The notes below the pieces were generated by a model. It searched no databases and had not been told where the DNA came from. It saw nothing but the letters and a program-made list of their open reading frames with translations. Shown here in pieces: positions 1,816 to 63,972 of a stretch of DNA of 64,000 bases (its first letter is position 1; every line of letters begins with the position of its first letter). A program made the position numbers and the translations under genes. The stretch covers positions 119,660,001 through 119,724,000 of the forward strand of contig OZ024743.1 in assembly GCA_964016885.1 (NCBI GenBank), read 5' to 3'. Source of the DNA: Eledone cirrhosa (lineage: Eukaryota).

Positions 1816-2342
1816 GTCAGGTCGCTCACGAGTGCTACTGGTAACATGTAAGTCAGTACAACCTCTCTCACGGTCCGGGCGACGGCGACTCAAGCGGCAG
1901 CCCTACCAAGCTTGCTTGGTGAGGAGGGTGATATCCGGACACCCTGCAGGATGAAATACAAGACCCGTCAAAGGGCGGAGGAACTCGGCAGAGTCAACGA
2001 CCATCCAAATAGTACTTTTTTTTTCATCTGGGAGTGAGAGGCCCCCAGTTGTTGTCACAACAGCTTTCTAGGAGAGAGAAACTCTGGAAAAAAAAACCTG
2101 CGGCTTCAAAAGCATCCGATGATGTTGACGAGTTCTCCTTTTCGAGTAGTATTTTGGATGCTCAGAGAGTGGGATTGGTCGAGTGCAAGGCCTTTCCCCA
2201 CTTAAAAAACCCTTCAAAGTACAGGCATTGCTTGTTCAGGCTCTATTACGGGTTCGTGTGGCTGGTAGTAACCTAAAAGTGCACCATTTTCTGTAATCTG
2301 ACAAGCGATTGCAATACTCTTAGCAGAGTTTGCAGCCATCAT
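1816..2342 (+). mobile_element. short non-autonomous RTE-derived retroelement (structured 5' module plus RTE-like 3' tail)
   Basis: 5' ~190 bp is homologous to 5755-5950(-) and 44550-44739(-). The 3' end gcaatactc-ttagca-gagtttgcagccatcat-(AT)n resembles the tail of the RTE at 50435. Flanked by (TA)n. Confidence 0.7.
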
Positions 2343-5539: not shown

Positions 5540-5949
5540 ACTCTCCCGTCGATATCTGACATATGAGGGTCCAACAAAAGTTAAATGTGAGAAATTGAAC
5601 TGATGTTGAACTACCCACAGAAAGTTTTGGTTTAAGTGGTGAAGGCTTGTGTAGGATCAACCACACTTTTTGGAACTGACGACACATATCTTCGGTACAA
5701 ATATTTGCCATGGAAAATACAAAGACAGCCCTCAAAAGACAAAAACAAAATACCATTTGGATGGCCGTTGACTATGCTGAGTTCCTCGGCCCTTTGCCGG
5801 GTCTTGTATTTCATCCCGCAGGGTGTCCAAATATCACCCTCCTCACCAAGCAAGCTTGGTGGTTGCCGGTTTAGTCACCGACGACCCGACCATGAAACAG
5901 GTAGTACTGGGTTACATGTGTTACCAGTAGCACTTGAGAGTGACGTGGC

Positions 5950-5950
<1 letters not shown>
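5533..5950 (-). mobile_element. short non-autonomous RTE-derived retroelement
   Basis: Shares the 5' module with 1816-2010. The 3' end gtc-agatatc-gac-gggagagtccatcat-(AT)n is an RTE-type stem-loop tail. (TA)n on both sides. Confidence 0.7.
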
Positions 5951-17516: not shown

Positions 17517-18102
17517 ACGTGTGTGTGTGTGTGTGTATTATAAATATATATGTTATAAGGATATATATGAAAAGATTAAGTATGTACGCTCCTATTGTGC
17601 ATAGAACTATCTTGGTTCTTCTACAATTAATTAACAGCCAGCCAATTTCGCACTATATGAGAAATGAGAATTTCCAGCTGATGTTTTCTATTTGTGATTT
17701 GCACAGGGGCATCTCCAGCAAATGTTCAATATGCAAAATCTATATAGATTCAAGCGTATTTTCACCTCAGTACCGTTTGAGTGAATGTGATAGAGGAGAA
17801 ATTAACGAATTTTGAAGCATCTGTCTGGCATTTTCAGCTGCTACTGAGATATATGTAACGTTGACAGAACAAAAGAGGGAAATTTTTTTTTACATAGCAA
17901 AAAAATACTTTTCTTTGATATCGAGACTCTATTCTACATAAACATATTGTATATGCTTTCATGTAGACTCCTATTATGGACAATAATAACTTAATGCTAC
18001 TGCCAATACCCCCCCACACACACACACATACATACATACATACACATACATACATACATACATACATACATACATACATACATACATACATACATACATA
18101 CA

Positions 18103-18138
<36 letters not shown>

Positions 18139-18140
18139 TC

Positions 18141-18218
<78 letters not shown>

Positions 18219-18220
<2 letters not shown>

Positions 18221-19445
18221 AGATATATGTGACAGCACAGCGAACCTCTTCAGCAGAATCAATGAATGCAACAGGATCAAAAACTTAACTAACTGCACAA
18301 TAGGCAGTATGGATGTAGTATCACTGTACCGATCCATTAACATTGATTTTGCTGTGGAAAAATGTGTGGAAATAATCATTGAGAGTTCTGCGACGTCGAC
18401 ACAGATGAACTGGGCCTCTTACTTAGACTTACTTATGACACCGAGTACCTAGATAACCATGACCTTAGCTGTTTCTGCTCCAGTAGACCCATAAAAGGTA
18501 GAACCCCCACCATAACCTTAATGGCTAAAAAGACGATCAGGTGAAAAAAATGGTCGCACATGCAATAGGGGCTAGTATTAAAACTTCCCTAAAGGGCCAC
18601 ATGTTTAAATTTAACGAAAATATCTACACTCAGAATGAAGCTGCAGCCATAGCTGGTGATGTTGCCAACCTTTTTATGGTATGGTGGGAAAGGAGACTCA
18701 AAGATCTCCCTGAAGAGAGCTCCATAGACCTCATCATGTACTTTCGTTACGTAGACGATATTAATATAGTAATAAGAACATCCCTACAAGAGAGTAATAA
18801 TGAACATGATTTAGAAGATAATGCAGGGGAAAGCATCCAGCAGATAGCAAACTCCATACACCAAAGTATAACTGTAACTGTTGACTACTCTTCCAAACAC
18901 CCTAACAATAGACTACCAGTATTAGACACGGAACTCTGGATTAACACTATAGACGAGAGGGCCCAAATTCTCCACTCACACTATGCTAAACCAATGGCCT
19001 CCAAATACCTGATACTCAAAAACTCAGCAATGTCCAATAGTGCTAAGTTTAATATTCTGATCGCAGACTTGATACGAGTGATGAAGAATGTATCCCGCAT
19101 GTGTGACCCAACTGAAATGGAAAGAGAAGAATTTGCCCATTATACAGGAGCACATCATGGAATAGCTTAGATAGGACTAAACATAAGATAGGGAAAGCCA
19201 TTTCATGGGACGACAACCAGAGATGCCAGAGTGTCATATTCGTGGATGCTACCCCTGGGGGGAAATTAGCTAACCAATGTAGAAAGGCCCTAAGAAAGAC
19301 CCACTTAAAGATTAAAGTGGTATATAAGCCAGGAACTACCATAAAATCTCTGATCAGCAAAACATACCCCTTTAAGAAAACCCACTGTACTAATTAATAA
19401 GAGATGTGTTATATGTAAAATGAACCCCCAGATAAACTGTAAAAC
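18219..19445 (+). mobile_element. Penelope-like element, degenerate reverse transcriptase fragment
   Basis: RT motifs in broken frames: [20 protein letters not shown]...ANLFM, YFRYVDD, RLPVLDTELW, HYAKPMASKY. A VIFVDATPGGKLA segment and Cys-containing linker follow; the fragment stops before a GIY-YIG domain. (TA)n on both sides. Confidence 0.85.
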
Positions 19446-23825: not shown

Positions 23826-23982
23826 CTAGGGTGGCGATAAGATGTTGATGATAACAGTGATGGTGATGATGGAAATGAACATTGTGATGATGATGATATG
23901 TGATGATGATGGTAATGATAAAGAGGAGGATAGCGATTGTTTTTGTTTCTTGTTATCACATATTTATGACGATACATTTTAT

Positions 23983-24800
23983 AATAATTGCTTCTACTTT
24001 TGGCACAAGGCCAGCAATTAATCCAGTGTATTACTGGTACTCTATTTTATCGGCCCCGTTAGGATAAAAGCAAAGTTAACCTCGGCGGGATTTGAACTCA
24101 GGCCATAAAGGGGCGTAACCCTATGCTGCAAAGCCCGGCGCCTGACCCACTACTGATACTGCTAATCCACCGCCCTTGCAATATTTTTGTAATAATTGTT
24201 TCTACATTTGGCATAAGGCCAGCAATTACTCAGTACATTATTGGTACTTTATTTTATCGACCCCGTAAGGATAAATGGCAAAGTTAACCTCGGCGGGATT
24301 TGAACTCAGTCCGTAAAAGGACGTAACTCTATGCTGGAAAGCATGGCGTCCGACTCTCTACCGATACTGCCAATCCACCGCCCCAATATTTTGTAATAAT
24401 AACGATAATAATTGTTTTTACTTTTGGCACAAGGCCAGCAATTATCCAGTGCATTACTGGTACTTTATTTTATCGACCCCGTAAGGATGAAAGGCAAAGT
24501 TAACCTTGGCGGGATTTGACCTCAGAACATAAAGGGACGTAACTATGCTGGAAAGCATATTGCCCGACCCTCTACCGATACTGCCAATAATGGTTTCTTA
24601 TATAGGCACAAGGCCAGCAATTTTGGGAGAGGGGAAAGTCGATTAAATCGACCCTAGTGCGTGAGTGATACTTTATTTTATCAATCTCGTAAGGATGAAA
24701 GGCAAACTTAACCTCGGCGGGATTTGAACTTAGAACGTGAAGAGCCGTAACTCTATGCTGCAATGTGCATGGCGTCCGACCCTCTACCGATACTGCCAAT
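23983..24800 (-). mobile_element. four head-to-tail SINE family A copies
   Basis: Units at about 23983-24177, 24192-24383, 24408-24588 and 24588-24800; the last carries a longer-tail subtype. Confidence 0.92.
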
Positions 24801-27610: not shown

Positions 27611-27614
27611 CCCC

Positions 27615-28086
27615 AAAAATACACACATAAACACCCACGCAAACATCTGAGAGTGACATATAGACCTCATCTTCTCGCAGCGAAGACGAGGGACTAACAC
27701 AACGGACAAAAAACACACATAAATACCCACACAAACATCTGAGAGTGACATATAGACCTCATCTTCTCGCAGCGAAGATGAGGGACTAACACAGCGGACA
27801 AAAAACACGCATAAATACCCACACAAACATCTGAGAGTGACATATAGACCTCATCTTCTCGCAGCGCAGACGAGGGACTAACACAACGGACAAAAAACAC
27901 ACATAAACACACACACAAACATCTGAGAGTGACATGTAGACGTCATCTTCTCGCAGCGAAGACGAGGGACTAACACAACGGAGAAAAAACACACATAAAC
28001 ACCCACACAAACATCTGAGAGTAACATATAGACCTCATCTTCTCGCAGAGAAGATGAGGGACTAACACAACGGACAAAAAACGAAA
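27615..28086. repeat. 92-bp minisatellite, at least 5 copies, running into the gap
   Basis: aaacatctgagag recurs at 27641, 27733, 27825, 27917 and 28009. Confidence 0.95.
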
Positions 28087-30342: not shown

Positions 30343-30690
30343 AAGGTGGATTGGCAGTATCGGTTAGAGGGGTCGGACGCCATGCTTTCCAGCATAGTTA
30401 CGTCCCCTTTACGATCTGAGTTCAAATCCCGCCGAGGTTGACTTTGCCTTTCATCCTTACGGGGTCGATAAAATAAAGTACCAGTAATGTACTGGGTAAT
30501 TGCTGGCCTTGTGCCTAAAGTAGAAACAATTATTAGAATGCTTTCCAGCATAGTTACGTCCCTTTACGATCTGAGTTCAATTCCCGCTGGAGGTTGACTT
30601 TGCCTTTCATCCTTACGGGGTCGATAAAATAAAGTACCAGTAATGTACTGGATATTGCTGGCCTTGTGCCTAAAGTAGAAACAATTATTA
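30343..30690 (+). mobile_element. SINE family A, full plus truncated tandem copy
   Basis: A-box tggcagtatcgg, B-box gagttcaaatcc; attattaga at all three junctions. Confidence 0.92.
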
Positions 30691-31245
30691 GATTGTATGA
30701 TTTGTTGCTAGCAATATCTCGTCTCTTCTATAAAAGCGAGCGAACTTTTCACAGAATGCAATGAGCACAGGACAGAAAAATATCAATTCTGTTTTTGATT
30801 AGAACATATTTTATCGACTTCGGGATGATGAATGGCAACCTTGAAATGAGCTGTATTTGAAATTAGCATGAACAACGCCGTAAAAGTATATAGAAAGTAA
30901 TTTTGCCTGACATTTTCTTACAACACACCGTAATACTGACATGAAGAAGCATCGAGCCTAAAAGTTTACATTAGTAAGCGTAAATAGTCGAGAACGTAAA
31001 GGGAATAGCCAAACACCGTAACGTCTCTTAACATGTATTGTTGTTTTTCTCCATTATTAAGCCGAAATAGATCTCTACTTGTTTCAACAAGTATTATCCT
31101 TAGGGATACATTTTATTCATAAGCATATTAATCGACATGTTCTTATTTTTGTTGCTATTCTTGCTGTTTAATAACGGGTAGGTGACCTATTATTAAAGGT
31201 ACTCCAGGCATTACCATACTGGTTTCTTTACAAATAGTAAATATA

Positions 31246-31808
31246 CCGTATTTCCCGGCGCCGAAGACGCTTCGTCCTCAGGGGTGCACCCTAATTTTGA
31301 CAACCAAATATTTGAAAAGAAAATAATTGTTTCTACTTTAGGCACAAGGCCAGCAATTACCCAGTGCATTACTTTGTACTTTATTTTATCGACCCCGTAA
31401 GGATGAAAGGCAAAGTCAACCTCGGCGGGGATTTGAACTCAGATCGTAAAGGGACGTAACTATGCTGGAAAGCATGGCGTCCGACCCTCTACAGATACTG
31501 CCAATCCACCGCCCGAAAATTTTGAAAATAAAATAATTGTTTCTACTTTAGGCACAAGGCCAGCAATTACACAGTGCATTACTGGTACTTTATTTTATCG
31601 ATCCCGTAAGGATGAAAGGCAAAGTAAACCTCGGCGGGATTTGAACTCAGACCGTAAAGGGACGTAACTATGCTGGAAAGCATGGCGTCCGACTCTCTAC
31701 CGATACTGCCAATCCAAAGAAAATAATAAACATAAAAATGCAACGCACGGTAGATTTTTTAGGCTTATTTTAGGAAAAAAGTAGCGTCTTCGACGCCGGG
31801 AAATAATA
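31246..31808. mobile_element. Tc1/mariner-like MITE containing two nested SINEs
   Basis: TIRs ccgtatttcccggcgccgaagacgc / gcgtcttcgacgccgggaaata; TA at the left end. Confidence 0.7.
31322..31716 (-). mobile_element. two tandem SINE family A copies
   Basis: 31322-31514 and 31533-31716; the first is flanked by aaatatttgaaaa / aaattttgaaaa. Confidence 0.92.
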
Positions 31809-41736: not shown

Positions 41737-41874
41737 CATGTAACTCTTCACTGTTGTTATTATCACTGCCTCCTACGTTATAGTGAGAATCTATAGTAAG
41801 AATCCAAATAATTCATAAGAAAGATAACACACATATACGTGCATATATATATATACATATATACATACATACAT

Positions 41875-43362
41875 ATGATATGGTCATCGGAACTCTCTGC
41901 GCAAAACAAAACAGTGGCTCACAATGTGTTTGCTGTGCCTGTCCTAACACCAACTTTTGGAATACTCAATTGGACGATAGACGAAATCCGAGCGATTGAT
42001 GTTAGAACTCGAAAAATACTAAACAACACCGGAAATTTCCACATCAAGAGTGACATAGACCGCATTTACTTGAAACGTAAGCAGGGAGGCAGAGGCCTAA
42101 CATCAGTCCAGACACCATTTGAATGTCGCATCATATCCCTCGGACAACATCTACGAACCTCAAAGCATAGGAACCCGTCTCTCGAGCAAATCTATCTGCA
42201 TGAAAAAGATAGAGTTGGGAAGGAACTCCTCGAGAGGTATTCCCTGCGTGATAATCAAAACCTCATACCCAGGGAAGTCACTCAGCACTATCGCAGTGAA
42301 ACCATGGATGAAAAACTGCATGATTATCAGCAAAAAATCATGCATGGATATGTTGCCAGGAAGCTCCAGAGTGAGAGTAATATAGATAAGGAAAGTAGTC
42401 TATCTTGGACCAACAACCGCTATATTGGCTCCCACTTTGAAGGATACGCTTTTGCAATCCAGGAACAGGAGATTAGCACGAAATACCTGATTCACAAAAG
42501 AGATAGGGATGCAGGCAAAACACCTAGATGTGATAACAAGTGCAGACTCTGCAGAACTGACATCGAGGATATCACCCATGTCATCAGCAGCTGTCCAAAG
42601 ATGTCATCGCGATACTATCTACCTATGAGGCATGATGTAGTGGCCAAAACACTGTACAATGCAGTTCGTAAAAAAGGTAGCCCCGATAATAAACACATTA
42701 AAAGTTACAACAATGTGGAAGACATCCATGTACATAATATGAAAGAGTAGTGGTGGAATGTTCCAGTAAAAACCCCAATAAAATGCAGGCATAACAGACC
42801 AGATATTATGATATGGGACAGGGAGAAGAAAACATGCACAGTAGTGTAAATTAGCTGCCCAGCAGATGCCGATATAATATCAAAGATTAGTGAAAAGGAG
42901 AATATTTATGCAGAACTGATGAGAAATCTGGAGATACTCCACCCTGATTACACCTTCAGATTTATGCCTGTGATTATTGGAGCACTGGGATATGTTAGTA
43001 ACTGCCTCAATACAAATCTTGAGAAGCTAGGCTTCACAGGAACAGAAAGAACACAACTAGTTAGGAAATTACAAGTACAATCCATTAATGGAACAGTAAA
43101 AATATGTAAAACTTTCCAAAAATTTTGCATCTAATAACTGCATATACACATGTACAGATACAAAGCATATACACATGCACACATGCAACTCAAAATATAC
43201 ACATCCACACATACAATAACATCCATATCTACACATGTATGCATACATACATATCTACCTAGTTGATGTTGTGTAAATTCCAATGAGAGAGTCTTGTGTC
43301 TATGTTAGAAACCGACTCTCTCTCTATTGGTAAAACTTTGTGAAATTATAAAACCAGAAGAA
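41875..43362 (+). mobile_element. R4/Dong-clade non-LTR retrotransposon, 5'-truncated (post-RT region plus restriction-like endonuclease), pseudogenised
   Basis: RIYLKRKQGGRGL; CCHC finger CRLC...HVISSC; RHD; HNRPDIMIWD; KISEKENIY; PVIIGALG. In-frame stops at ~42750 and ~42849. 3' UTR hairpin at 43280-43330. (CATA)n on both sides. Confidence 0.9.
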
Positions 43363-43395
43363 CATACATACATTCATACATACGCACATACACAC

Positions 43396-43787
43396 ATGGT
43401 GGCTGCCAACTCGTTTTCGAGTACGGCCACTACTTTATATCCATGTAGGAGAACCCCCACCGATGCGCCGAACGAGTGTGACTTTCTCCAGTCCAGCCAG
43501 TGACTTGAAAACTCTGGTACAAACACTACACCTGTGACAATTATTGACACATAGTGCTGGGCCCATGGTACCACGTGACGACAAGTGCAGAGAGATCTCC
43601 AGATATAAAGCAATGCCTGTGCCGTGAAGCTTTTATAGTGAGCACAAAGCCAGTCCCACTCTCTTAACCAAGATGATATTTACCAAAAAGAAGAACAAGT
43701 CAACATCATTGGATACCATCAGAGTTGCAGGTGTTATATCAGAGTTTTCCTTCTCCTAGAATTATTGACACATAGTGCTGGGCCCAT
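43396..43787 (-). mobile_element. non-autonomous RTE derivative, 5'-truncated
   Basis: Near-duplicate of 44145-44515; tail gtggccgtactcgaaaacgagttggcagccaccat followed by TG/TATG repeats. Confidence 0.75.
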
Positions 43788-43861
43788 ACATACATACATA
43801 CATACATACATACATACATACATACATACATACATACATACATACATACATACATACATAC

Positions 43862-44135
43862 ATGATGGCTGCAACTCGATTTCGAATAATGTCATCGTTT
43901 GATACTTAAGCATGAGCACCATGGATGTAGCTTTTTAGTCATCCTAGGGACTTGCCTATGACTAGCAATACCATGCACCGCAAAAAACATGCCACATATC
44001 AAGCGATGTCTGTGTTTTTAAGTGAGGAAAGGCTTTGCACGCGGCCAATCCCACTCTCTGAACATTGAATGCATTTACCCCAAAAGAAAAACTGGTCTAC
44101 ATCATTGGTTGCAAACAAAGTCGCAGGTTTTATAT
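43862..44135 (-). mobile_element. diverged non-autonomous RTE derivative, 5'-truncated
   Basis: Tail ttcgaaatcgagttgcagccatcat-(GTAT)n; body is weakly similar to its neighbours (cccactctct, catcattgg, gcaggt). Confidence 0.6.
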
Positions 44136-44144
44136 CATACATAC

Positions 44145-44739
44145 ATGGTGGCTGCCAACTCGTTTTCGAGTACGGCCACTACTTTATATCCATGTAGAAC
44201 TCCTGCCGATGTGCTGAACGTGTGTGACTTTTTAGTCCAGCCAGCGACTTGAAAACTCTGGTACAAACACTACACTTGCGACAATTATTGACACATAGTG
44301 CTGGGCCCATGGTACCATGTGATGACAAGTGCAGAGAGATCTCCAGATATAAAGCAAAGCCTGTGTTGTGAAGCTTTTATAGTGAGCAAAGGCACTGCAC
44401 AAAGCCAGTCCCACTCTCTTAACCAAGATGATATTTACCAAAAAGAAGAACAAGTCAACATCATTGGATACCATCAGAGTTGCAGGTGTTATATCAGAGT
44501 TTTCCTTCTCCTAGAATTCTGCCTTGACAAAGGCTAAGGGGTCATCTCTCCCGGTGATTTTGGATGGCCATTGACTCTTAAGAGCTCCTTTGCCCTTTGA
44601 CAGGTTTTGTATTTAGTCCTGCAGTATGTCCAAAGTCACCCTCCTCACCAAGAAACCTTGGTGGGGTTGCCAGTTTATGACCCGACCATGAGACAGGTTG
44701 TACTGGGATGTTACTAGTAGCACAAACTGGTGACCTCAC
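44145..44739 (-). mobile_element. full-length short bipartite RTE derivative
   Basis: Structured 5' module, a C2H2 remnant CSVCTRVFKSLAGLKSH, and an RTE-type tail; flanked by (CATA)n. Confidence 0.75.
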
Positions 44740-44878
44740 ATACATACATACATAGATACATACATACATACATACATACATACATACATACATACATACA
44801 TACATACATACGTACGTACATACACACACACACACACATACATACATACATACATACATACATACATACATACATACA

Positions 44879-44911
<33 letters not shown>

Positions 44912-45724
44912 GCATACATTGTTCAAAGTCAAAAATAAAAAGGTAAAAAACGGAGATTAATTACAAAAAAGTATTAATAGGTTCACGATTGTATCAAATG
45001 GAAAAAGAGTTTTCAACGTATCGGAGGTTAGTCCTTCATCAATAAACGAACGATAGTGAAGTTAGAAAAAGAAAGAGGTTATAAGAAAATTGAAAACGAG
45101 GCGTAAACGGTGGAGATTCAGCAGGAATAGTTACGTGGAGACATACACTCACACATATACGCACATATACAGTAGATTTGTTTACATATTTTCCATCATT
45201 GATTTTTCATCATCGTCGTCGTCGTCGTCATCATTATCATCATCATCATCAGTAAGATATGTTTGTGAGTTGTGAGTGATATGACACAGCAACCAACCAT
45301 AACGCATATTTAAGCGATACATGAAGTCAGCAAATGACAGACTGATGACGTATGAGTTCGAATATTAAGTTAAAGCGAACTGTAATTAAGCGTCTGATCA
45401 TGTCTGCTCTATAGGAGGGAGACGTTCCATTTAATTTAGAGTCAAGTCACTATCTGGATATCATTAAATTCACTACAGGCTCCGCGTTTGTTACCTACAG
45501 TTTTAACATTAGCAGTAGCAGCATCAATGGCGGCTGCAGCATAATTTACAATGGCATCAACTGGTGCTGATGGTAATACAGAAATTGTTGTTGTCGTTTG
45601 AATTGCCATGGTATTAAGTATTGTGATGTTGGTACTAAGATATAAGTGTTGTAATGCTGTTGGTAGTGTTGATTGTGATGGTTGTAGCAGTCAATGTTGA
45701 AATTGTAATCTTTTTCTAATGACA

Positions 45725-49998: not shown

Positions 49999-50036
<38 letters not shown>

Positions 50037-50039
50037 CAT

Positions 50040-50432
50040 ACATACATATATGCATATATGCATGCATTCACACATACATACATACATACATACATGCATA
50101 CATGCATACATACATACATACATACATACATACATACATACATACATACATACATACATACATACATACATACATACTGGATTTGCGGACAAAAAGCGCA
50201 GCTCCCTAATTCATAGTCTACAAATGGCTGCGATAGCTGGTACCTTCAAAATTTGCAAAACATTCTTGCGATTCAAGGGATGACAATTTTTTTCTTTTAC
50301 AACCTTGCCACCAGGAAGGTGGCTGGTCAAAAAAATATACTCGAAATTAAGAGAAAGAGATACATACATACATACATACATACATACATACATACATACA
50401 TACATACATACATACATACATACATACATACA
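50040..50432. repeat. (CATA)n array forming the tail of the RTE element, interrupted by an R4/Dong fragment
   Basis: Direct reading. Confidence 0.9.
50177..50360 (+). mobile_element. R4/Dong-clade 3'-terminal fragment (second family)
   Basis: GFADKKRSSLIHSLQMAAIAGTFKICKTFLRFKG* aligns with GFTGTERTQLVRKLQVQSINGTVKICKTFQKFCI* at 43030-43134; its 3' UTR differs and has hairpin gccacc-aggaa-ggtggc. Confidence 0.8.
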
Positions 50433-50434
50433 TA

Positions 50435-53400
50435 AATGATGGCTTCCCCCTCGTTATCGAGCATGGCCATTGCACGAAAAAAAAAAATTAAAACATAATA
50501 ACGACAATAATAATAACAATAGCAACAATAATAATTATTATTATTATATATACACACACACACACACACGATAACAATTAACAGTGCTGCGTTCGAATGT
50601 GGCTTTTTAGCCCAGCCAATGATCTAAAATGTCTTTCACAGAGTTTACAACCAAAATATTCACTGGGAATAGCCGGCTGTGGTTGGAGTTATTGTACCTT
50701 TGCATATCGTTTAAGCCCTCCTGCTGATTTACATTCTCTACCACATGCTTGGCAGGCATGATGAGTAGCATCTCCAACAGCAACCTGGTAATCAACCAGT
50801 GGTCTCACTTTATGCTTGCGAAGATGACTTTCGAGTCCAGCTTTGCTGAGGCAGAGTCTCGCACAGACGCTGCATGTCAGCGTCATAGGAGGACCTTAGC
50901 TGTCCGGAAATGCAACAGTAATGCCCTTCCTCACATCCCTCTTTACTTTCTCGTATGCGATTCGAGATGCCTCAAAGGCAACTTTCCCTTCATATACAGT
51001 CTTTCTCCATTTATTACGATCAGCAGCAACATTTTCCCATGTATCAGTAGAGATGTTAGCGTCTTTCAAAGAAGCTTTCAACGAATCCTTATACCTCCTT
51101 TTTGGGGTTTATGTAGAGGTCGTTTTCCTTTAACTAACTCTCCATAAAAGAGTTGTTTTGGTATTCTAGAATCCTTCATCCTGACAAGGTGACTACTCCA
51201 ACGGAGTCTTTGCTTAAGCACAAGAGCTTCTATATTGTCACACAGAAAGCTTTCCAAAATCTCGACATCACTGATGTGGTCCCTCCAGTGAACGGCATGG
51301 ATCCGTCTGAGACACATCTGATGGAAACGTTCCAATTGTTTAAGGTGGTGTCGATATGTGACCCAGGTCTCTCAGGCATAAAGAAGAGAAGAGAACACAT
51401 ATGCCTTGTACACCTTTACCTTTGTCTTCTTGCATATGTCTCGCCGACTCCTGAGTCTCCTTTCTAGCTTTCCGAAAGTCCCACTTGCTTTCCTAATCCT
51501 GAGTGGAATTTCATTATCAAGGTTGCTGTATCGATTGACAGTGCTTCCCAGGTAGACAAACTGATCAACCACTCCAAGTCATTTACCATACACATAGATA
51601 TTTGGCTCACTGTACTGCTTACCAGGGACAGGTTGGTACATAGCGAGGTTTTCTTGAGACTGACAGTGAATCCTAGGGCAGTGCAAGCATCAGAAAATGC
51701 ATTCAAAATGTGCTGCATATCACTCTCTATGTGTGCTATAAGATCGCAATCATCTGTATACCAGAGATCTCTTATGGTTGATGTAAATACTTTTGTTTTT
51801 GCATCAAAGCGCCTGATGTTAAATATGCTGCTTGAGGTTCGATATTGGATGTAAACACCATGCTCGTATTTCCTGAATGCAATATAGAAAACCATTGCAA
51901 AGTATATGGCAAACAGGGTCGGTGCTGGAATATCCCCGTTTCACTCCATTTTTTACTGATATAGGCTCCAACATGTTACCTCTGACTTACCCAAGCTTTC
52001 ATGTCGTCATGGAAAGACCTAACCAAAGCAAGAAACTTATCAGGGCAACCAAGTTTCTGGAGAACCTTCCACAATGCATTTCTGTTAATAATATTGAAAG
52101 CTTTTATCAGATCGACAAAAACCTGATACAGATCCAAACCTTGTTCCATGCACTTCTGTTTGAGCTGTCTAGCTGAGAAGATCATATCAGTAGTGCCGCA
52201 TCCAGCACAAAAACCAGATTGACTTTCAGGAAGAACACAATCTGCAATGTGCGTCAGCAGACGGTTCAGAAGCACCCTACATAAAATTTTTCCTACGACA
52301 GAAAGCAATGATATACCTCTGTAGTTTCCACAATCATTCTTGTTACACTTTCCCTTGTATAATACCACCATTACTGCATCTCTCCAGTCCTCAGGTACGG
52401 ATTCACTAGCCCATATCCTGCCAAACAAAGAGTGAAGATGTTGCAGCAGATGTCTCTCACCATTGTAAGAGCTCTGCATGTATGCCATCCATAGCTGGAG
52501 ATCTTCCACTGTTCAGCTTCAAGATAGCTACTGCAACCTCCACAAGCGTCGGTGCTTCTTCGAGAGCTACTTTCACAGGCTTTTCAGGAATGAGATTGAG
52601 GAAATCTTCATTGACGACAGACGGCTGATTCAAAAGTTCATCAAAGTGCTCTCGCCACCTTCGTAGAATTCTTTGTGAGTCACGAAGAAGTTCCTTGCCA
52701 TCCTTGCTGCGAAGCGGTGTCACCAGAGAAGAAGACGGTCCATAAACCTCACGCAAGAGACTGTACAAGAGCTTTGTGTTATTGGAATCTGATGCAGCTT
52801 GTATCTCATCAGCCTTCTCACTCCACCACTGATCCTTCATCTGACTGAGAAAGACTCCGCCTAACACGTGATTTCACATCCTTGAGTTCCTTATGCAACA
52901 TATTCTTCTCCTGTGGTGTTGCTGTCAAGTAGCGTGATAGAGCACGCCTTTTACCAGCCAACAAGTCATCTATATGTTCATCATTCTCATTAAACCAGTC
53001 TTGATGTTTTCTCTGCACCAATCCCAGAACACGCCTGCCTACATCATAAACCGATTTTTAAGGGTCGACTAATCCTCACCAATACCTGCATCTCTTCTCG
53101 CAATGTCCTCTTCACATTTTTATCTCTAAGACGAGCAGCATTCAATCTTCTGGGCAGGGTAACACTAGGAGCCCGGATTTTAGGTTTAATGATTAATTTC
53201 ACTTTCGCGCGTACCAGGCGGTGGTCTGTCCAGCACTCAGCTCCACGAAGAGCACAAACACACTGCACATCCCGTCTGTCACGCATCCTGACTAGGACGT
53301 AGTCCAAAAGATGCCATTCCTTAGATGCAGGATCCATCCATGTGGTCTTAAATTTGTTCTTTTGCTGGAACATGGTGTTGGTAACACACAGATACAGCTC

Positions 53401-53484
53401 CTCACACATCTGCAGCAGGAGCATACTATTGTTGTTACACTTCCCCACCTCATGCCTTCCGATTACATTCCATGTGATAAAATC
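50435..53484 (-). mobile_element. RTE-clade LINE, 5'-truncated and frameshifted (partial APE endonuclease, RT, three C2H2 fingers)
   Basis: WHLLDYVLVR...CWTDHRLV; NYRGISLLSVVGKIL; LPESQSGF; VFVDLIKAF; LWYTDDC (YADD motif); FVYLGS; RLRWSSHLVRMKDSRIPKQLFYGEL. Stop at 50578-50580; stem-loop tail followed by (TATG)n. Confidence 0.93.
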
Positions 53485-54550
53485 CATACATACATACATT
53501 AGTGGCGACTATAGTTCATCAGTGTTACTCACGATTAGCTGTTTTAACAACATTTAGTAAATATTCAATTTAAAGTGCCATATATAATAGAAGAATGTAA
53601 ACCTCTAACTACAATTTAATAAATTAACTCAATTAACTACGCATCGGACCGATTTTTTAACCCCTTTCTTACATTTAACTGAAACAAAAGCCAATGATTT
53701 TCAAATGATTTTCAAGGGTTCATTTAGATATCTTGAATCCGTTGCTTGCCTTACATGACCTAAAAACAGGAATTCAATACCATTTCGATAAATTGGAATT
53801 GAGAAGAAAAACCAAATCTGATTCCATAAACTTAATTTACACCTTCGAAAATGTATCTCTGCAAAATTTCATAAAAACATGCATTCTTCAGGAAATTGTA
53901 AGGAAACACAATCGGTAGAGAGGCACTAAACATGTGACCTATAATTTATTTACATGTTTAACAAACAAAAACACAGCGGGCTATATCATTTGGAGTGATG
54001 GGGGATAATAGAAAATACGAAATATTTATTTCTTCCTTATTATTCAATGCATTTCTTTAGAAAATAATTTGAAAGTGTTTCTTGTAATAGAATCAGCTAT
54101 GCATTTACTTGGAACGTGTACAGTAATAGTACGTTAAAAAGTAATAATTCTGCAATTTGTATGAGAAAAATTATTTGCTTCCTTTAAACATGAATTCCCA
54201 GTGATTCGGTTTTATAGCAAATTCCCCCAATATCTGTTTGTTGTTTGAAATCGAAGAGCATTTATTCATCGATGAAAACATAAGCTAGTGAAGATAACTA
54301 TCCTTGATTGATTCAGTAAAAAGTTGAAAGGTGTCTTTGAAAAGTGTCTTTGAATTGCAACGGAGATTGTGAAGAAAATGAGGAAAGTTGAATTAGTACA
54401 ACAGTTTCAGACATAACAAACAAGAAACACAGTTTATGAGCTCTTAAATAAAATTGATTTAAACCTTTTAAATAATTTATGCCGAAACACATAACTGGGC
54501 TCAATTTATGTATATACACATATACACATATATATATATACATATATATA

Positions 54551-54998
54551 TTCTAGGGCGGGTAAAATTCCCGAGATCCATGGACGAGTTCTCTCCAGCG
54601 GTCTCTGTCCCTCATTATCGCTGCCATGTCCTGCGTCTCCAACAGACCAGTGTCTGTCCTTAGGGCATCAACATACGTTAACCTTGGTCTTCCTCTTCCA
54701 GTGTGACCTGAAAATCCGCCTGTTCATTTCTGTAGTGGAGTATGTGCTGCTGTACGGGTCTGAGACTTGGACACTGACCAAGAAACTCACTCAGATGGTG
54801 GATGGGTGCTACACGAGAATGCTGAGGATGGCGCTGAACATTAATCAGTATACACTGAGGATGAAAAACTCAGAGTTGCATTGGAGCCTCCCAAAAGTCA
54901 GCTCAAAAGTGACACAGAGGAGACTATGGTTAGCTGGACATGCTCACCGACATCCAGAGTTGACATTGCACTCAGTGCTCCTGTGGGATCCCCTACAT
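54551..54998 (-). mobile_element. RTE-X-like LINE 3' fragment with inverted 5' segment
   Basis: Minus 54708-54553 encodes GHTGRGRPRLTYVDALRTDTGL...DRDRWRELV*. Plus 54706-54998 encodes DLKIRLF...LLYGSETWTLT...RRLWLAGHAHRHPE...LLWDPLH. Confidence 0.85.
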
Positions 54999-55158
54999 AT
55001 ATATATAATATAATATAATATAATATAATATAATATAATATAATATAATATAATATAATATAAAAGAAAGATGTTTATTGGTTGGTTGGTTGAATCACAC
55101 GAAAACTACACACACACACATCTAAAAAGAGAGACAGGCAGAGAGATATAGGCCGTTG

Positions 55159-63321: not shown

Positions 63322-63696
63322 TAATTGTTTCTACTTTTGGCACAAGGCCAGCAATTTCCCAGTACATTACTGATACTTTATTTCATCGACCCCGTAAGGA
63401 TGAAAGGAAAAGTTAACCTCGACGGGATTTGAACTCAGACCGTGATGGGACGTAACTATGCAAGAAAGCATGGCGTCCAACCCTCACCGATACTGTCAAT
63501 TCAATATAATTGTTTCTATTTTAGGCACAAGGCCAGCAATTACCCAGTGCATTACTGGTACTTTATTTTATCGACCCCGTAAGGATGAAAGGCAAAGTTA
63601 ACCTCGGCGGGATTTAAACTCAGATCATAAAGGGAGGTAACTCTATGCTTCAAAGCATGGCGCCCGACCCTCTACCAATACTGCCAATCCACCGCC
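63322..63696 (-). mobile_element. two tandem SINE family A copies
   Basis: The second copy has a perfect flanking duplication caattcaatataat at 63497-63510 and 63696-63709. Confidence 0.92.
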
Positions 63697-63782
63697 AATT
63701 CAATATAATGGCAAATTACCAGAGTCGTTAGATAAAACGCTTCGTGATATTTGTTTTGAATTCGTATTCTCTGAATTCAGAG

Positions 63783-63966
63783 TAGTGGATTGGTAGTATC
63801 GGTAGGGGGTTGGACACCATAGTTTGCAGCAAAGAGTTACGGCCCTTTATGATCTGAGTTCAAATCCCGCCCAGTTTAACTTTACTTTTCATCCTTACGG
63901 GGTCGATAAAATAAAGTACGAGTAATACACTGAGATAATTGCTGGCCTTGTGCCAAAAGTAGAAAC

Positions 63967-63972
<6 letters not shown>
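63783..63972 (+). mobile_element. SINE family A
   Basis: A and B boxes, core, and tail running into (TA)n. Confidence 0.9.

What the first reader, a model, noticed from the sequence alone, without database searches (positions are those of the whole stretch)
50040..50480. Two different R4/Dong families both sit in RTE tails, antisense: possible parasitism between LINE clades
Seen: the 184-bp R4/Dong end at 50177-50360 lies inside the (TATG)n tail of the RTE LINE. The 1.5-kb R4/Dong at 41875-43362 abuts the tail of an RTE derivative. Both have the same polarity ((CATA)n on their sense strand) but different 3' UTRs. Known: R4-clade elements use a sequence-specific restriction-like endonuclease, and Dong-type members target microsatellites such as (TAA)n. 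Inference: a (TACA)n-specific lineage uses arrays seeded by RTE tails as a renewable safe target. Two events is a small sample.
Basis: partly seen in the sequence, partly recalled or inferred. Interest (0 to 1): 0.75.

Follow-up and report, generated by a model that had tools for sequence, protein, structure and literature searches.

The report
Two jumping-gene clades share one microsatellite
Two families of Dong/R4-like jumping genes sit almost always in the four-letter repeat CATA on one strand, and unrelated RTE-type jumping genes sit in the same repeat (and in TA repeats) facing the other way, so the two likely share a target rather than one parasitising the other.

Summary
Two R4/Dong-like families (at least 5,418 and 4,079 copies) sit in (CATA)n: 58 of 71 5' junctions (chance 1.2%), fixed 3' register, one polarity. 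Published Dong elements take (TAA)n. One-way parasitism of RTE tails is not supported. (1) The (TATG)n run is mostly the RTE's own target, not its tail. RTE-type copies have it at their 5' junction too, 9 of 18 unselected copies lack it and sit in (TA)n or TA-rich sites, and one has a 12-bp duplication and no tail. (2) Dong lies beside RTE 5' ends (20/71) as often as beside RTE 3' ends (37/115; p=0.63). (3) Age order runs both ways. (4) Genome-wide excess adjacency is only 1.4- to 2.9-fold, and about two thirds of sampled Dong copies touch no RTE tail. At 50178 Dong did come later (0% vs 5.9% private changes). Best reading: two unrelated endonuclease systems use one dispersed microsatellite on opposite strands and build mixed chains, like TRAS/SART at silkworm telomeres. 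This scan noted the same system twice before elsewhere in this genome (unchecked notes).

The parts
41827..41876 (+). Short degenerate CA/TA/CATA array at the 5' junction of the family A copy (target remnant)
41877..43362 (+). 5'-truncated R4/Dong-like family A copy: end of RT region, CCHC knuckle, restriction-like endonuclease, 228-nt 3' UTR; premature stops
43362..43397 (+). Degenerate (CATA)n spacer joining Dong A and RTE-type S1 tail to tail
43395..43763 (-). 5'-truncated RTE-type non-autonomous element S1 (family about 597 bp)
43768..43863 (+). (CATA)n array between the S1 head side and the S3 3' end
43864..44137 (-). Truncated RTE-type element S3 (same 3' hairpin end)
44144..44740 (-). 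Full-length S1 element
44737..44919 (+). (CATA)n array at the 5' (head) junction of S1: target on the side where no tail can be
49999..50177 (+). CA/TA/(CATA)n array at the 5' junction of the family B fragment
50178..50360 (+). 183-bp 3' end of R4/Dong-like family B (last 34 codons plus 3' UTR); young, 0 of 182 private changes
50360..50434 (+). (CATA)n array between Dong B and the RTE LINE 3' end
50438..53483 (-). 5'-truncated, broken RTE-type LINE (C-terminal part of APE, RT, C2H2 fingers); 5.9% private changes
53485..53499 (+). (CATA)3 / (TATG)3 at the RTE LINE's truncated 5' junction
1816..2342 (+). Full-length RTE-type short element flanked by (AT)n on both sides, no TATG tail (in-window counter-example)

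Best explanation
Dong/R4-like families A and B sit in (CATA)n in one orientation and RTE-type elements sit in (CATA)n and (TA)n in the other, likely because each inserts independently into existing microsatellites on opposite strands, which builds mixed chains without one-way parasitism. Shown: placement, polarity, register, symmetric neighbours, both age orders. Inferred: Dong's restriction-like endonuclease, probably guided by the N-terminal three-helix domain, nicks the TATG strand, and the RNA end (constant ACAT) pairs with the primer. The RTE APE endonuclease would nick the CATA strand at a TpA step, and its RNA end (constant AT) pairs with a primer ending in AT. That fits (TA)n in either direction but only one strand of (CATA)n, which would explain the opposite polarity. 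Each insertion splits an array into two that can regrow by slippage, so long or already used arrays collect more elements of both clades. This gives a modest, clade-blind excess of adjacency.
For: Dong 5' junction in CATA: 58 of 71; 129 of 153 in the wider census; chance 234 of 20,000 windows; control SINE ends 2 of 240. 3' flank CATA in 111 of 118, TAA 0, TATG 0. Register: 51 of 59 A ends continue CATA; 42 of 59 B ends continue WAACAT. Polarity census: 362 Dong-sense and 344 RTE-antisense junctions vs 15 discordant (includes anchor junctions). RTE-type 5' junctions in CATA: 30 of 38 in anchored loci, with 45 truncated junctions in CATA, 31 of them with 0-4 nt overlap. In unselected regions only 9 of 18 RTE-type 3' ends have a CATA run; L177 has a 12-bp duplication and no tail. 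Dong beside RTE tail 37/115 vs head 20/71, p=0.63. An RTE 3' end follows a Dong end (37/115) as often as it follows an RTE head (13/38), p=0.84. Ages: DongA-S1 pairs, Dong clearly older 8, S1 clearly older 0 (n=38); DongB-S1 pairs, S1 older 4, Dong older 0 (n=13).
Against: Adjacency is above chance: 170 of 2,278 (7.5%) vs 5.5% site-weighted (p=7e-5) and 2.6% run-start null; sample 32% vs 9.9% (bootstrap 1.7-19%). Arrays around Dong hold more target sites (median 17) than size-biased random arrays (median 4), which independent uniform targeting alone does not explain. For the young family B, and at the finding's own site, Dong is the later arrival. A short encoded TATG tail in some RTE RNAs is not excluded: 4 of 63 full-length S1 copies lack a CATA or YA repeat at the head, and the LINE was sampled thinly. 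Nick positions are not measured. Samples are anchored on exact motifs and lean to young copies and to contig C1.
Confidence: 0.72

Rival explanations
1. One-way parasitism: RTE elements seed (TATG)n arrays as tails and Dong depends on those arrays as a renewable safe target.
For: 32% of sampled Dong 3' ends lead to an RTE 3' end vs 4% of random arrays. Family B is the youngest family (median 0.8% rare-variant divergence). At 50178 Dong is younger than the LINE. Lepidopteran RTEs do create repeats inside their TSDs (PMC2887409).
Against: Only about 4,740 RTE ends per strand lie within 30 bp of a (CATA)4, against 91,370 perfect runs per strand. 78 of 115 Dong copies have no RTE 3' end next. Heads are used as often as tails. 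RTE-type copies in (TA)n have no CATA tail. S1 is the younger partner in 8 clear DongA pairs.
Confidence: 0.08
2. Mutual facilitation: each clade's insertions duplicate and split the target and so raise the supply of perfect arrays for the other; the chains are a positive feedback between clades.
For: Long mixed chains. Arrays flanking Dong are much longer than size-biased expectation. Both age orders occur. Chains cluster: random regions hold 158 (CATA)4 sites per Mb vs about 290 per Mb genome-wide.
Against: No measure of array growth after insertion. No clear TSD could be read inside repeats. Clustering may reflect regional tolerance alone.
Confidence: 0.12
3. The RTE side has no real target preference. 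Its copies end up in YA repeats through 2-4 nt primer pairing, template jumping between RNAs, and survival in tolerant regions. Only Dong is sequence-specific.
For: RTE-type ends use TA as often as CATA (5 ATATAT, 6 ATACAT of 14). Published RTE sites are not sequence-specific and follow the RNA 3' repeat (PMC2887409, PMC6007223). 13 of 38 heads are followed by another RTE 3' end, as template jumping would give.
Against: 18 of 38 heads lie in arrays followed by Dong or by unique DNA. ATACAT is ten times rarer than ATATAT (3,582 vs 37,154) yet used as often. An equally dispersed control SINE shows 2 of 240.
Confidence: 0.08

Closest known systems
Dong (Bombyx mori), DongAg, DongBg, ostracod Dong: R4 clade, (TAA)n-specific (PMC3812793, PMC7998251; passages read)
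   Same: Single ORF with RT and C-terminal restriction-like endonuclease, N-terminal three-helix Myb-like region without zinc fingers, insertion into a microsatellite, many 5'-truncated copies.
   Different: Target is the tetranucleotide (CATA)n; 0 of 118 3' flanks are TAA. Clade membership was not tested by a tree with named references.
TRAS and SART in silkworm (TTAGG/CCTAA)n telomeric repeats (PMC7265360; passages read)
   Same: Two retrotransposon lineages insert into one tandem repeat in opposite orientations.
   Different: TRAS and SART are both APE-type (R1 clade, recalled) and telomeric. Here an RLE element and an APE element share a dispersed interstitial microsatellite, and the APE side also uses (TA)n.
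Lepidopteran RTEs that generate microsatellites (PMC2887409; abstract and Discussion read)
   Same: RTE 3' ends abut simple repeats; many truncated copies.
   Different: There the repeat lies inside the TSD and sites are not sequence-specific. Here the repeat flanks both ends and is absent when the site lacks it.
RTE insertion signature tied to the RNA 3' repeat (PMC6007223; passages read)
   Same: Short pairing between RNA end and target is proposed to steer RTE insertion.
   Different: That paper reports 1-2 nt microhomology and a T-stretch signature, and names only R1 and Tx1 as site-specific APE clades. Here nearly all copies sit in YA microsatellites.
Bipartite non-autonomous RTE elements such as RTESINE and WALLSI3 (PMC5786205; passages read)
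   Same: S1, S2 and S3 are 450-600 bp non-coding elements that share the LINE's 3' end.
   Different: Origin of their 5' part from an RTE 5' UTR was not tested here.
Active Dong-R4 and RTE families of Octopus (PMC13282606 first third and passages; PMC9115989 passages)
   Same: Recently active Dong-R4 (5 families, 1,129 insertions) and RTE families are reported in octopus; the RTE has C2H2 fingers and a 3' microsatellite.
   Different: The parts read do not describe a target sequence or shared chains. The species of this window was not determined; octopod is an inference.

Membership tests
R4/Dong clade | Single ORF with RT followed by CCHC knuckle and restriction-like endonuclease | tested here: met
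   Intact 1,174-aa ORF in L211; RVT_1 E 3.7e-25; conserved C-x2-C-x8-H-x4-C, RHD, RPD..E..K motifs in 51 homologs; best structural matches are R2 proteins, E 1e-33.
R4/Dong clade | No APE domain and no N-terminal zinc fingers | tested here: met
   Pfam finds only RVT_1 and zf-RVT; the N-terminus in the model is helical.
R4/Dong clade | N-terminal Myb/SANT-like domain (PMC7998251) | tested here: inconclusive
   Three-helix bundle, residues 27-79, pLDDT about 90. Top VIA matches are mostly Myb/SANT/MADF domains (Zeste Z 5.6, rmsd 2.5, 64 aligned; TRF1 Z 5.2, rmsd 3.3, 65 aligned), but Z is below the tool's trust level.
R4/Dong clade | RT phylogeny groups with Dong, R4 and Rex6 | not tested
   No named reference sequences were returned; nearest named hits are hypothetical proteins.
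Dong in the narrow sense | (TAA)n target | tested here: not met
   0 of 118 3' flanks TAA; 111 of 118 CATA.
R4/Dong clade | 5' HDV-like ribozyme (PMC3774820) | tested here: inconclusive
   Rfam scan of three full-length loci gave only sub-threshold repeat-driven hits.
RTE clade (window LINE) | Single ORF with APE then RT, sometimes C-terminal C2H2 fingers | tested here: met
   RT E 1.8e-14; many of the closest homologs are single 1.0-1.2 kaa proteins with PF03372 + PF00078, several with C2H2; fingers seen in translation. The window copy itself is broken and truncated.
RTE clade (window LINE) | RT phylogeny with named RTE elements | not tested
   The clade name rests on architecture and recalled motifs.
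RTE that seeds microsatellites (PMC2887409 type) | Repeat tail is new DNA lying inside the target-site duplication | tested here: not met
   L177: 12-bp duplication, no tail; 9 of 18 unselected ends lack CATA; window 1816-2342 in (AT)n. Tested mainly on S1/S2; the LINE was sampled thinly.
Bipartite non-autonomous RTE (S1-S3) | 3' end shared with an RTE LINE | tested here: met
   S2 last 40 nt 92.5% identical to the LINE; S1 22 codons 64% identical, E 1.6e-4; similar terminal hairpin.
Bipartite non-autonomous RTE (S1-S3) | 5' part from the RTE 5' UTR | not tested
   No full-length partner LINE was retrieved.
Transposon-targeting retrotransposon (parasite of another element) | Inserts into sequence supplied by the host element, and mostly there | tested here: not met
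   37 of 115 beside an RTE tail; heads used equally; both age orders.

The most novel reading that the evidence does not exclude
An RTE-clade lineage has become a true microsatellite-targeting element, a third site-preferring APE group beside R1 and Tx1. It partitions one dispersed repeat by strand with a CATA-specific R4/Dong lineage. The two unrelated endonuclease systems renew each other's target, building thousands of polarised retrotransposon chains across the genome.
Probability: 0.3. Interest if true: 0.72.

Novelty: new variant of a known kind. Interest (0 to 1): 0.5.

Why it matters
It adds a tetranucleotide target to the R4/Dong group, with a young family that has an intact ORF and copies 99.6-99.9% alike. 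That makes the determinants of microsatellite recognition by restriction-like retrotransposons testable by comparing TAA- and CATA-specific proteins. It also suggests that repeats annotated as RTE 'tails' can be targets, and that an RTE lineage may be target-preferring. And it gives a dispersed, cross-clade parallel to TRAS/SART for asking how mobile elements share a niche. The parasitism story itself does not stand.

Tried and rejected
Empty-site test with public runs: Logan contigs break at the repeats and no piece spans the locus, so no verdict. TSD search: no readable duplication inside repeats; one clear 12-bp case (L177) and a few ambiguous ones. Rfam ribozyme scan: nothing above threshold. 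PDB search with the APE remnant: no match. The first age analysis merged different copies through a short key and was discarded; one search replaces it. Two more sets of random regions were not obtained, so the background is 100 regions (1 Mb) with a wide interval. My early estimate that about 80% of RTE 5' junctions lie in CATA came from CATA- or Dong-anchored loci; the unselected sample shows about half, the rest TA. Three segmental duplicates (L051, L146, L147) and the two window copies were dropped before the 115/71 counts. One locus (L282) gave no anchor. The original Dong paper (PMC309301) is not held, and Kojima and Fujiwara 2004 was not read. Ten paper searches found no report of a CATA/TATG target or of Dong-RTE chains. 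Repbase entries and four unsearched supplement files of PMC9115989 could hold one.

Full report
Observation. The window lies at G000:C4 in a 3.0-Gb genome, likely an octopod (inference; species not determined). Both described junctions are there. The 183-bp piece at 50178-50360 encodes the last 34 residues of an ORF and matches a full-length 4.2-kb element. One copy of that element has an intact 1,174-aa ORF (L211). The 1.5-kb piece at 41877-43362 belongs to a second family, 52% identical at protein level. Exact 3'-end motifs occur 4,079 times (B) and 5,418 times (A), with zero reversed controls.

What the Dong-like elements are. The family B protein has RT (Pfam E 3.7e-25), a CCHC knuckle and restriction-like endonuclease motifs conserved in 51 homologs. 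Its model (pLDDT 86) best matches R2 structures. The N-terminus is a three-helix bundle with weak matches to Myb/SANT domains (Z up to 5.6) and no zinc fingers, as described for R4/Dong (PMC7998251, passages). No tree with named references could be built, so 'R4/Dong' rests on architecture.

Dong targets (CATA)n. I sampled 118 copies other than the window's own: 58 by similarity and 60 in genome order. After dropping three segmental duplicates, 71 of 115 showed their 5' junction, and 58 of these lie in CATA repeat. Chance is 1.2%; a control SINE gave 2 of 240. All five full-length 5' ends in the census lie in CATA. The 3' flank is CATA in 111 of 118, never TAA or TATG. Register is fixed: 51 of 59 A ends continue CATA and 42 of 59 B ends continue WAACAT. 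In unselected regions 12 of 14 Dong 3' ends have CATA. The few off-target copies keep AACAT and then follow the local sequence, so a long tail is probably not encoded. Published Dong targets are (TAA)n (PMC3812793, PMC7998251; passages).

The RTE side. The LINE has RT, an APE remnant and C2H2 fingers, and many of its closest homologs are single APE+RT proteins. The short elements S1-S3 share its 3' end; S1 alone has at least 7,807 copies. The premise that (TATG)n is their tail fails in three ways. First, the repeat also flanks their 5' junctions: 30 of 38 in anchored loci, 45 truncated junctions with mostly 0-4 nt overlap, and the window's own LINE at 53485-53499. Second, in 100 random 10-kb regions only 9 of 18 RTE-type 3' ends have a CATA run; the others lie in (TA)n or short TA sites, as does the element at window 1816-2342. 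Third, L177 shows a 12-bp duplication and no tail. Per site, ATACAT is still favoured: 6 vs 5 junctions, although ATATAT is ten times commoner. Against my reading: anchored samples overstate the CATA share, 13 of 38 heads could come from template jumping, and a short encoded tail in the LINE RNA is not excluded.

Excess adjacency. Whole-genome exact counts give 433,797 forward (CATA)4 sites and 91,370 perfect runs. An RTE end follows within 30 bp for 5.5% of sites and 2.6% of run starts. For family A ends followed by (CATA)4 the figure is 170 of 2,278, or 7.5%; the numerator used a motif three letters shorter, so it is an upper bound. The excess is 1.4- to 2.9-fold and significant. With no distance limit, 37 of 115 sampled Dong ends reach an RTE 3' end, against 7 of 170 random arrays or 40 of 405 sites (95% interval 1.7-19%). 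So the excess is real. It is not tail-specific, though. Dong follows an RTE 5' head in 20 of 71 cases (p=0.63). An RTE head is followed by an RTE 3' end in 13 of 38 (p=0.84). The clade mix of neighbours does not differ (p=0.58 and 0.56), and 22 of 115 Dong ends lead into another Dong. About 5% of perfect runs lie near an RTE end.

Order of arrival. Rare-variant divergence has medians of B 0.8%, LINE 1.0%, A 1.5%, S1 1.5% and S2 2.6%. In 38 DongA-S1 tail pairs Dong is clearly older in 8 and S1 in none. In 13 DongB-S1 pairs S1 is clearly older in 4 and Dong in none. At 50178 Dong has 0 of 182 private changes and the LINE 61 of 1,039, so Dong came later there. At 43362 the pair is undecided (2.0% vs 1.4%). 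These are short-sequence estimates from motif-selected copies. An empty-site test with public contigs gave no verdict.

Mechanism. Shown: placement, polarity (706 concordant vs 15 discordant junctions, anchors included), register, symmetry and mixed order. Inferred: target-primed reverse transcription from a nick on the TATG strand for Dong and on the CATA strand for RTE, each with a few bases of RNA-primer pairing. An RTE RNA ending in AU can pair with a primer ending in AT. A TpA nick yields such a primer on the CATA strand and in (TA)n but not on the TATG strand, which would explain both the TA use and the opposite polarity. Insertions split arrays, and arrays around Dong are long (median 17 sites vs 4), so long or already used arrays, or tolerant regions, draw repeated hits.

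Comparison and novelty. It works like Dong, with a different repeat, and like TRAS/SART, which enter one telomeric repeat in opposite directions (PMC7265360, passages), but here across RLE and APE clades and at dispersed sites. Active Dong-R4 and RTE families are already reported in octopus (PMC13282606, first third and passages; PMC9115989, passages and 8 of 12 supplement files); the parts read give no target. RTE sites are described as not sequence-specific (PMC2887409, abstract and Discussion), and only R1 and Tx1 as site-specific APE clades (PMC6007223, passages). Ten searches found no CATA/TATG target (listed under Tried and rejected); Repbase and subscription papers were not searchable. 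Two earlier unchecked notes of this scan describe the same shared-repeat system elsewhere in this genome. I reached this reading before seeing them and do not count them as support. Verdict: a new variant of a known kind, interest 0.5; one-way parasitism is unlikely.

Noticed in passing
L211:421-3942 (-), G000:C1: Intact 1,174-aa ORF of family B; other copies are 99.6-99.9% identical to it or to each other, so the family was likely active very recently.
   Followed up: yes
window 1816-2342 (+) and 5742-5950 (-): Further RTE-type short elements whose junctions lie in (TA)n rather than (CATA)n.
   Followed up: partly
window 18015-18218 and ORF 18529-19170 (+): A long CA/(CATA)n/(TA)n array is followed by an RT-like remnant with a YVDD motif (Penelope-like by recall); not matched by the Dong or RTE library.
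   Followed up: no
window 50280-50365 (+): The family B 3' UTR folds into a long hairpin, z -4.1 against shuffles.
   Followed up: no
L177 (G000:C17): S1 copy with a clean 12-bp target-site duplication and no repeat tail.
   Followed up: yes
L144-L147 (G000:C1 20.77 Mb); L050/L051: Whole Dong-S2-Dong chains are duplicated in tandem or segmentally.
   Followed up: no
runs X1, X2, X3: Family B-like sequence occurs in runs labelled as three other organisms; in X1 with the same CATA-type 3' junction.
   Followed up: no
window 54495-55013 (+): Another LINE 3' fragment followed by an (ATATA)n run.
   Followed up: no
window 23981-24800, 30345-30695, 31306-31716, 63322-63972: An abundant SINE of about 200 bp forms head-to-tail dimers and trimers; used here only as a control family.
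   Followed up: partly
window 27614-28082: 92-bp tandem repeat (5 copies) next to an assembly gap.
   Followed up: no
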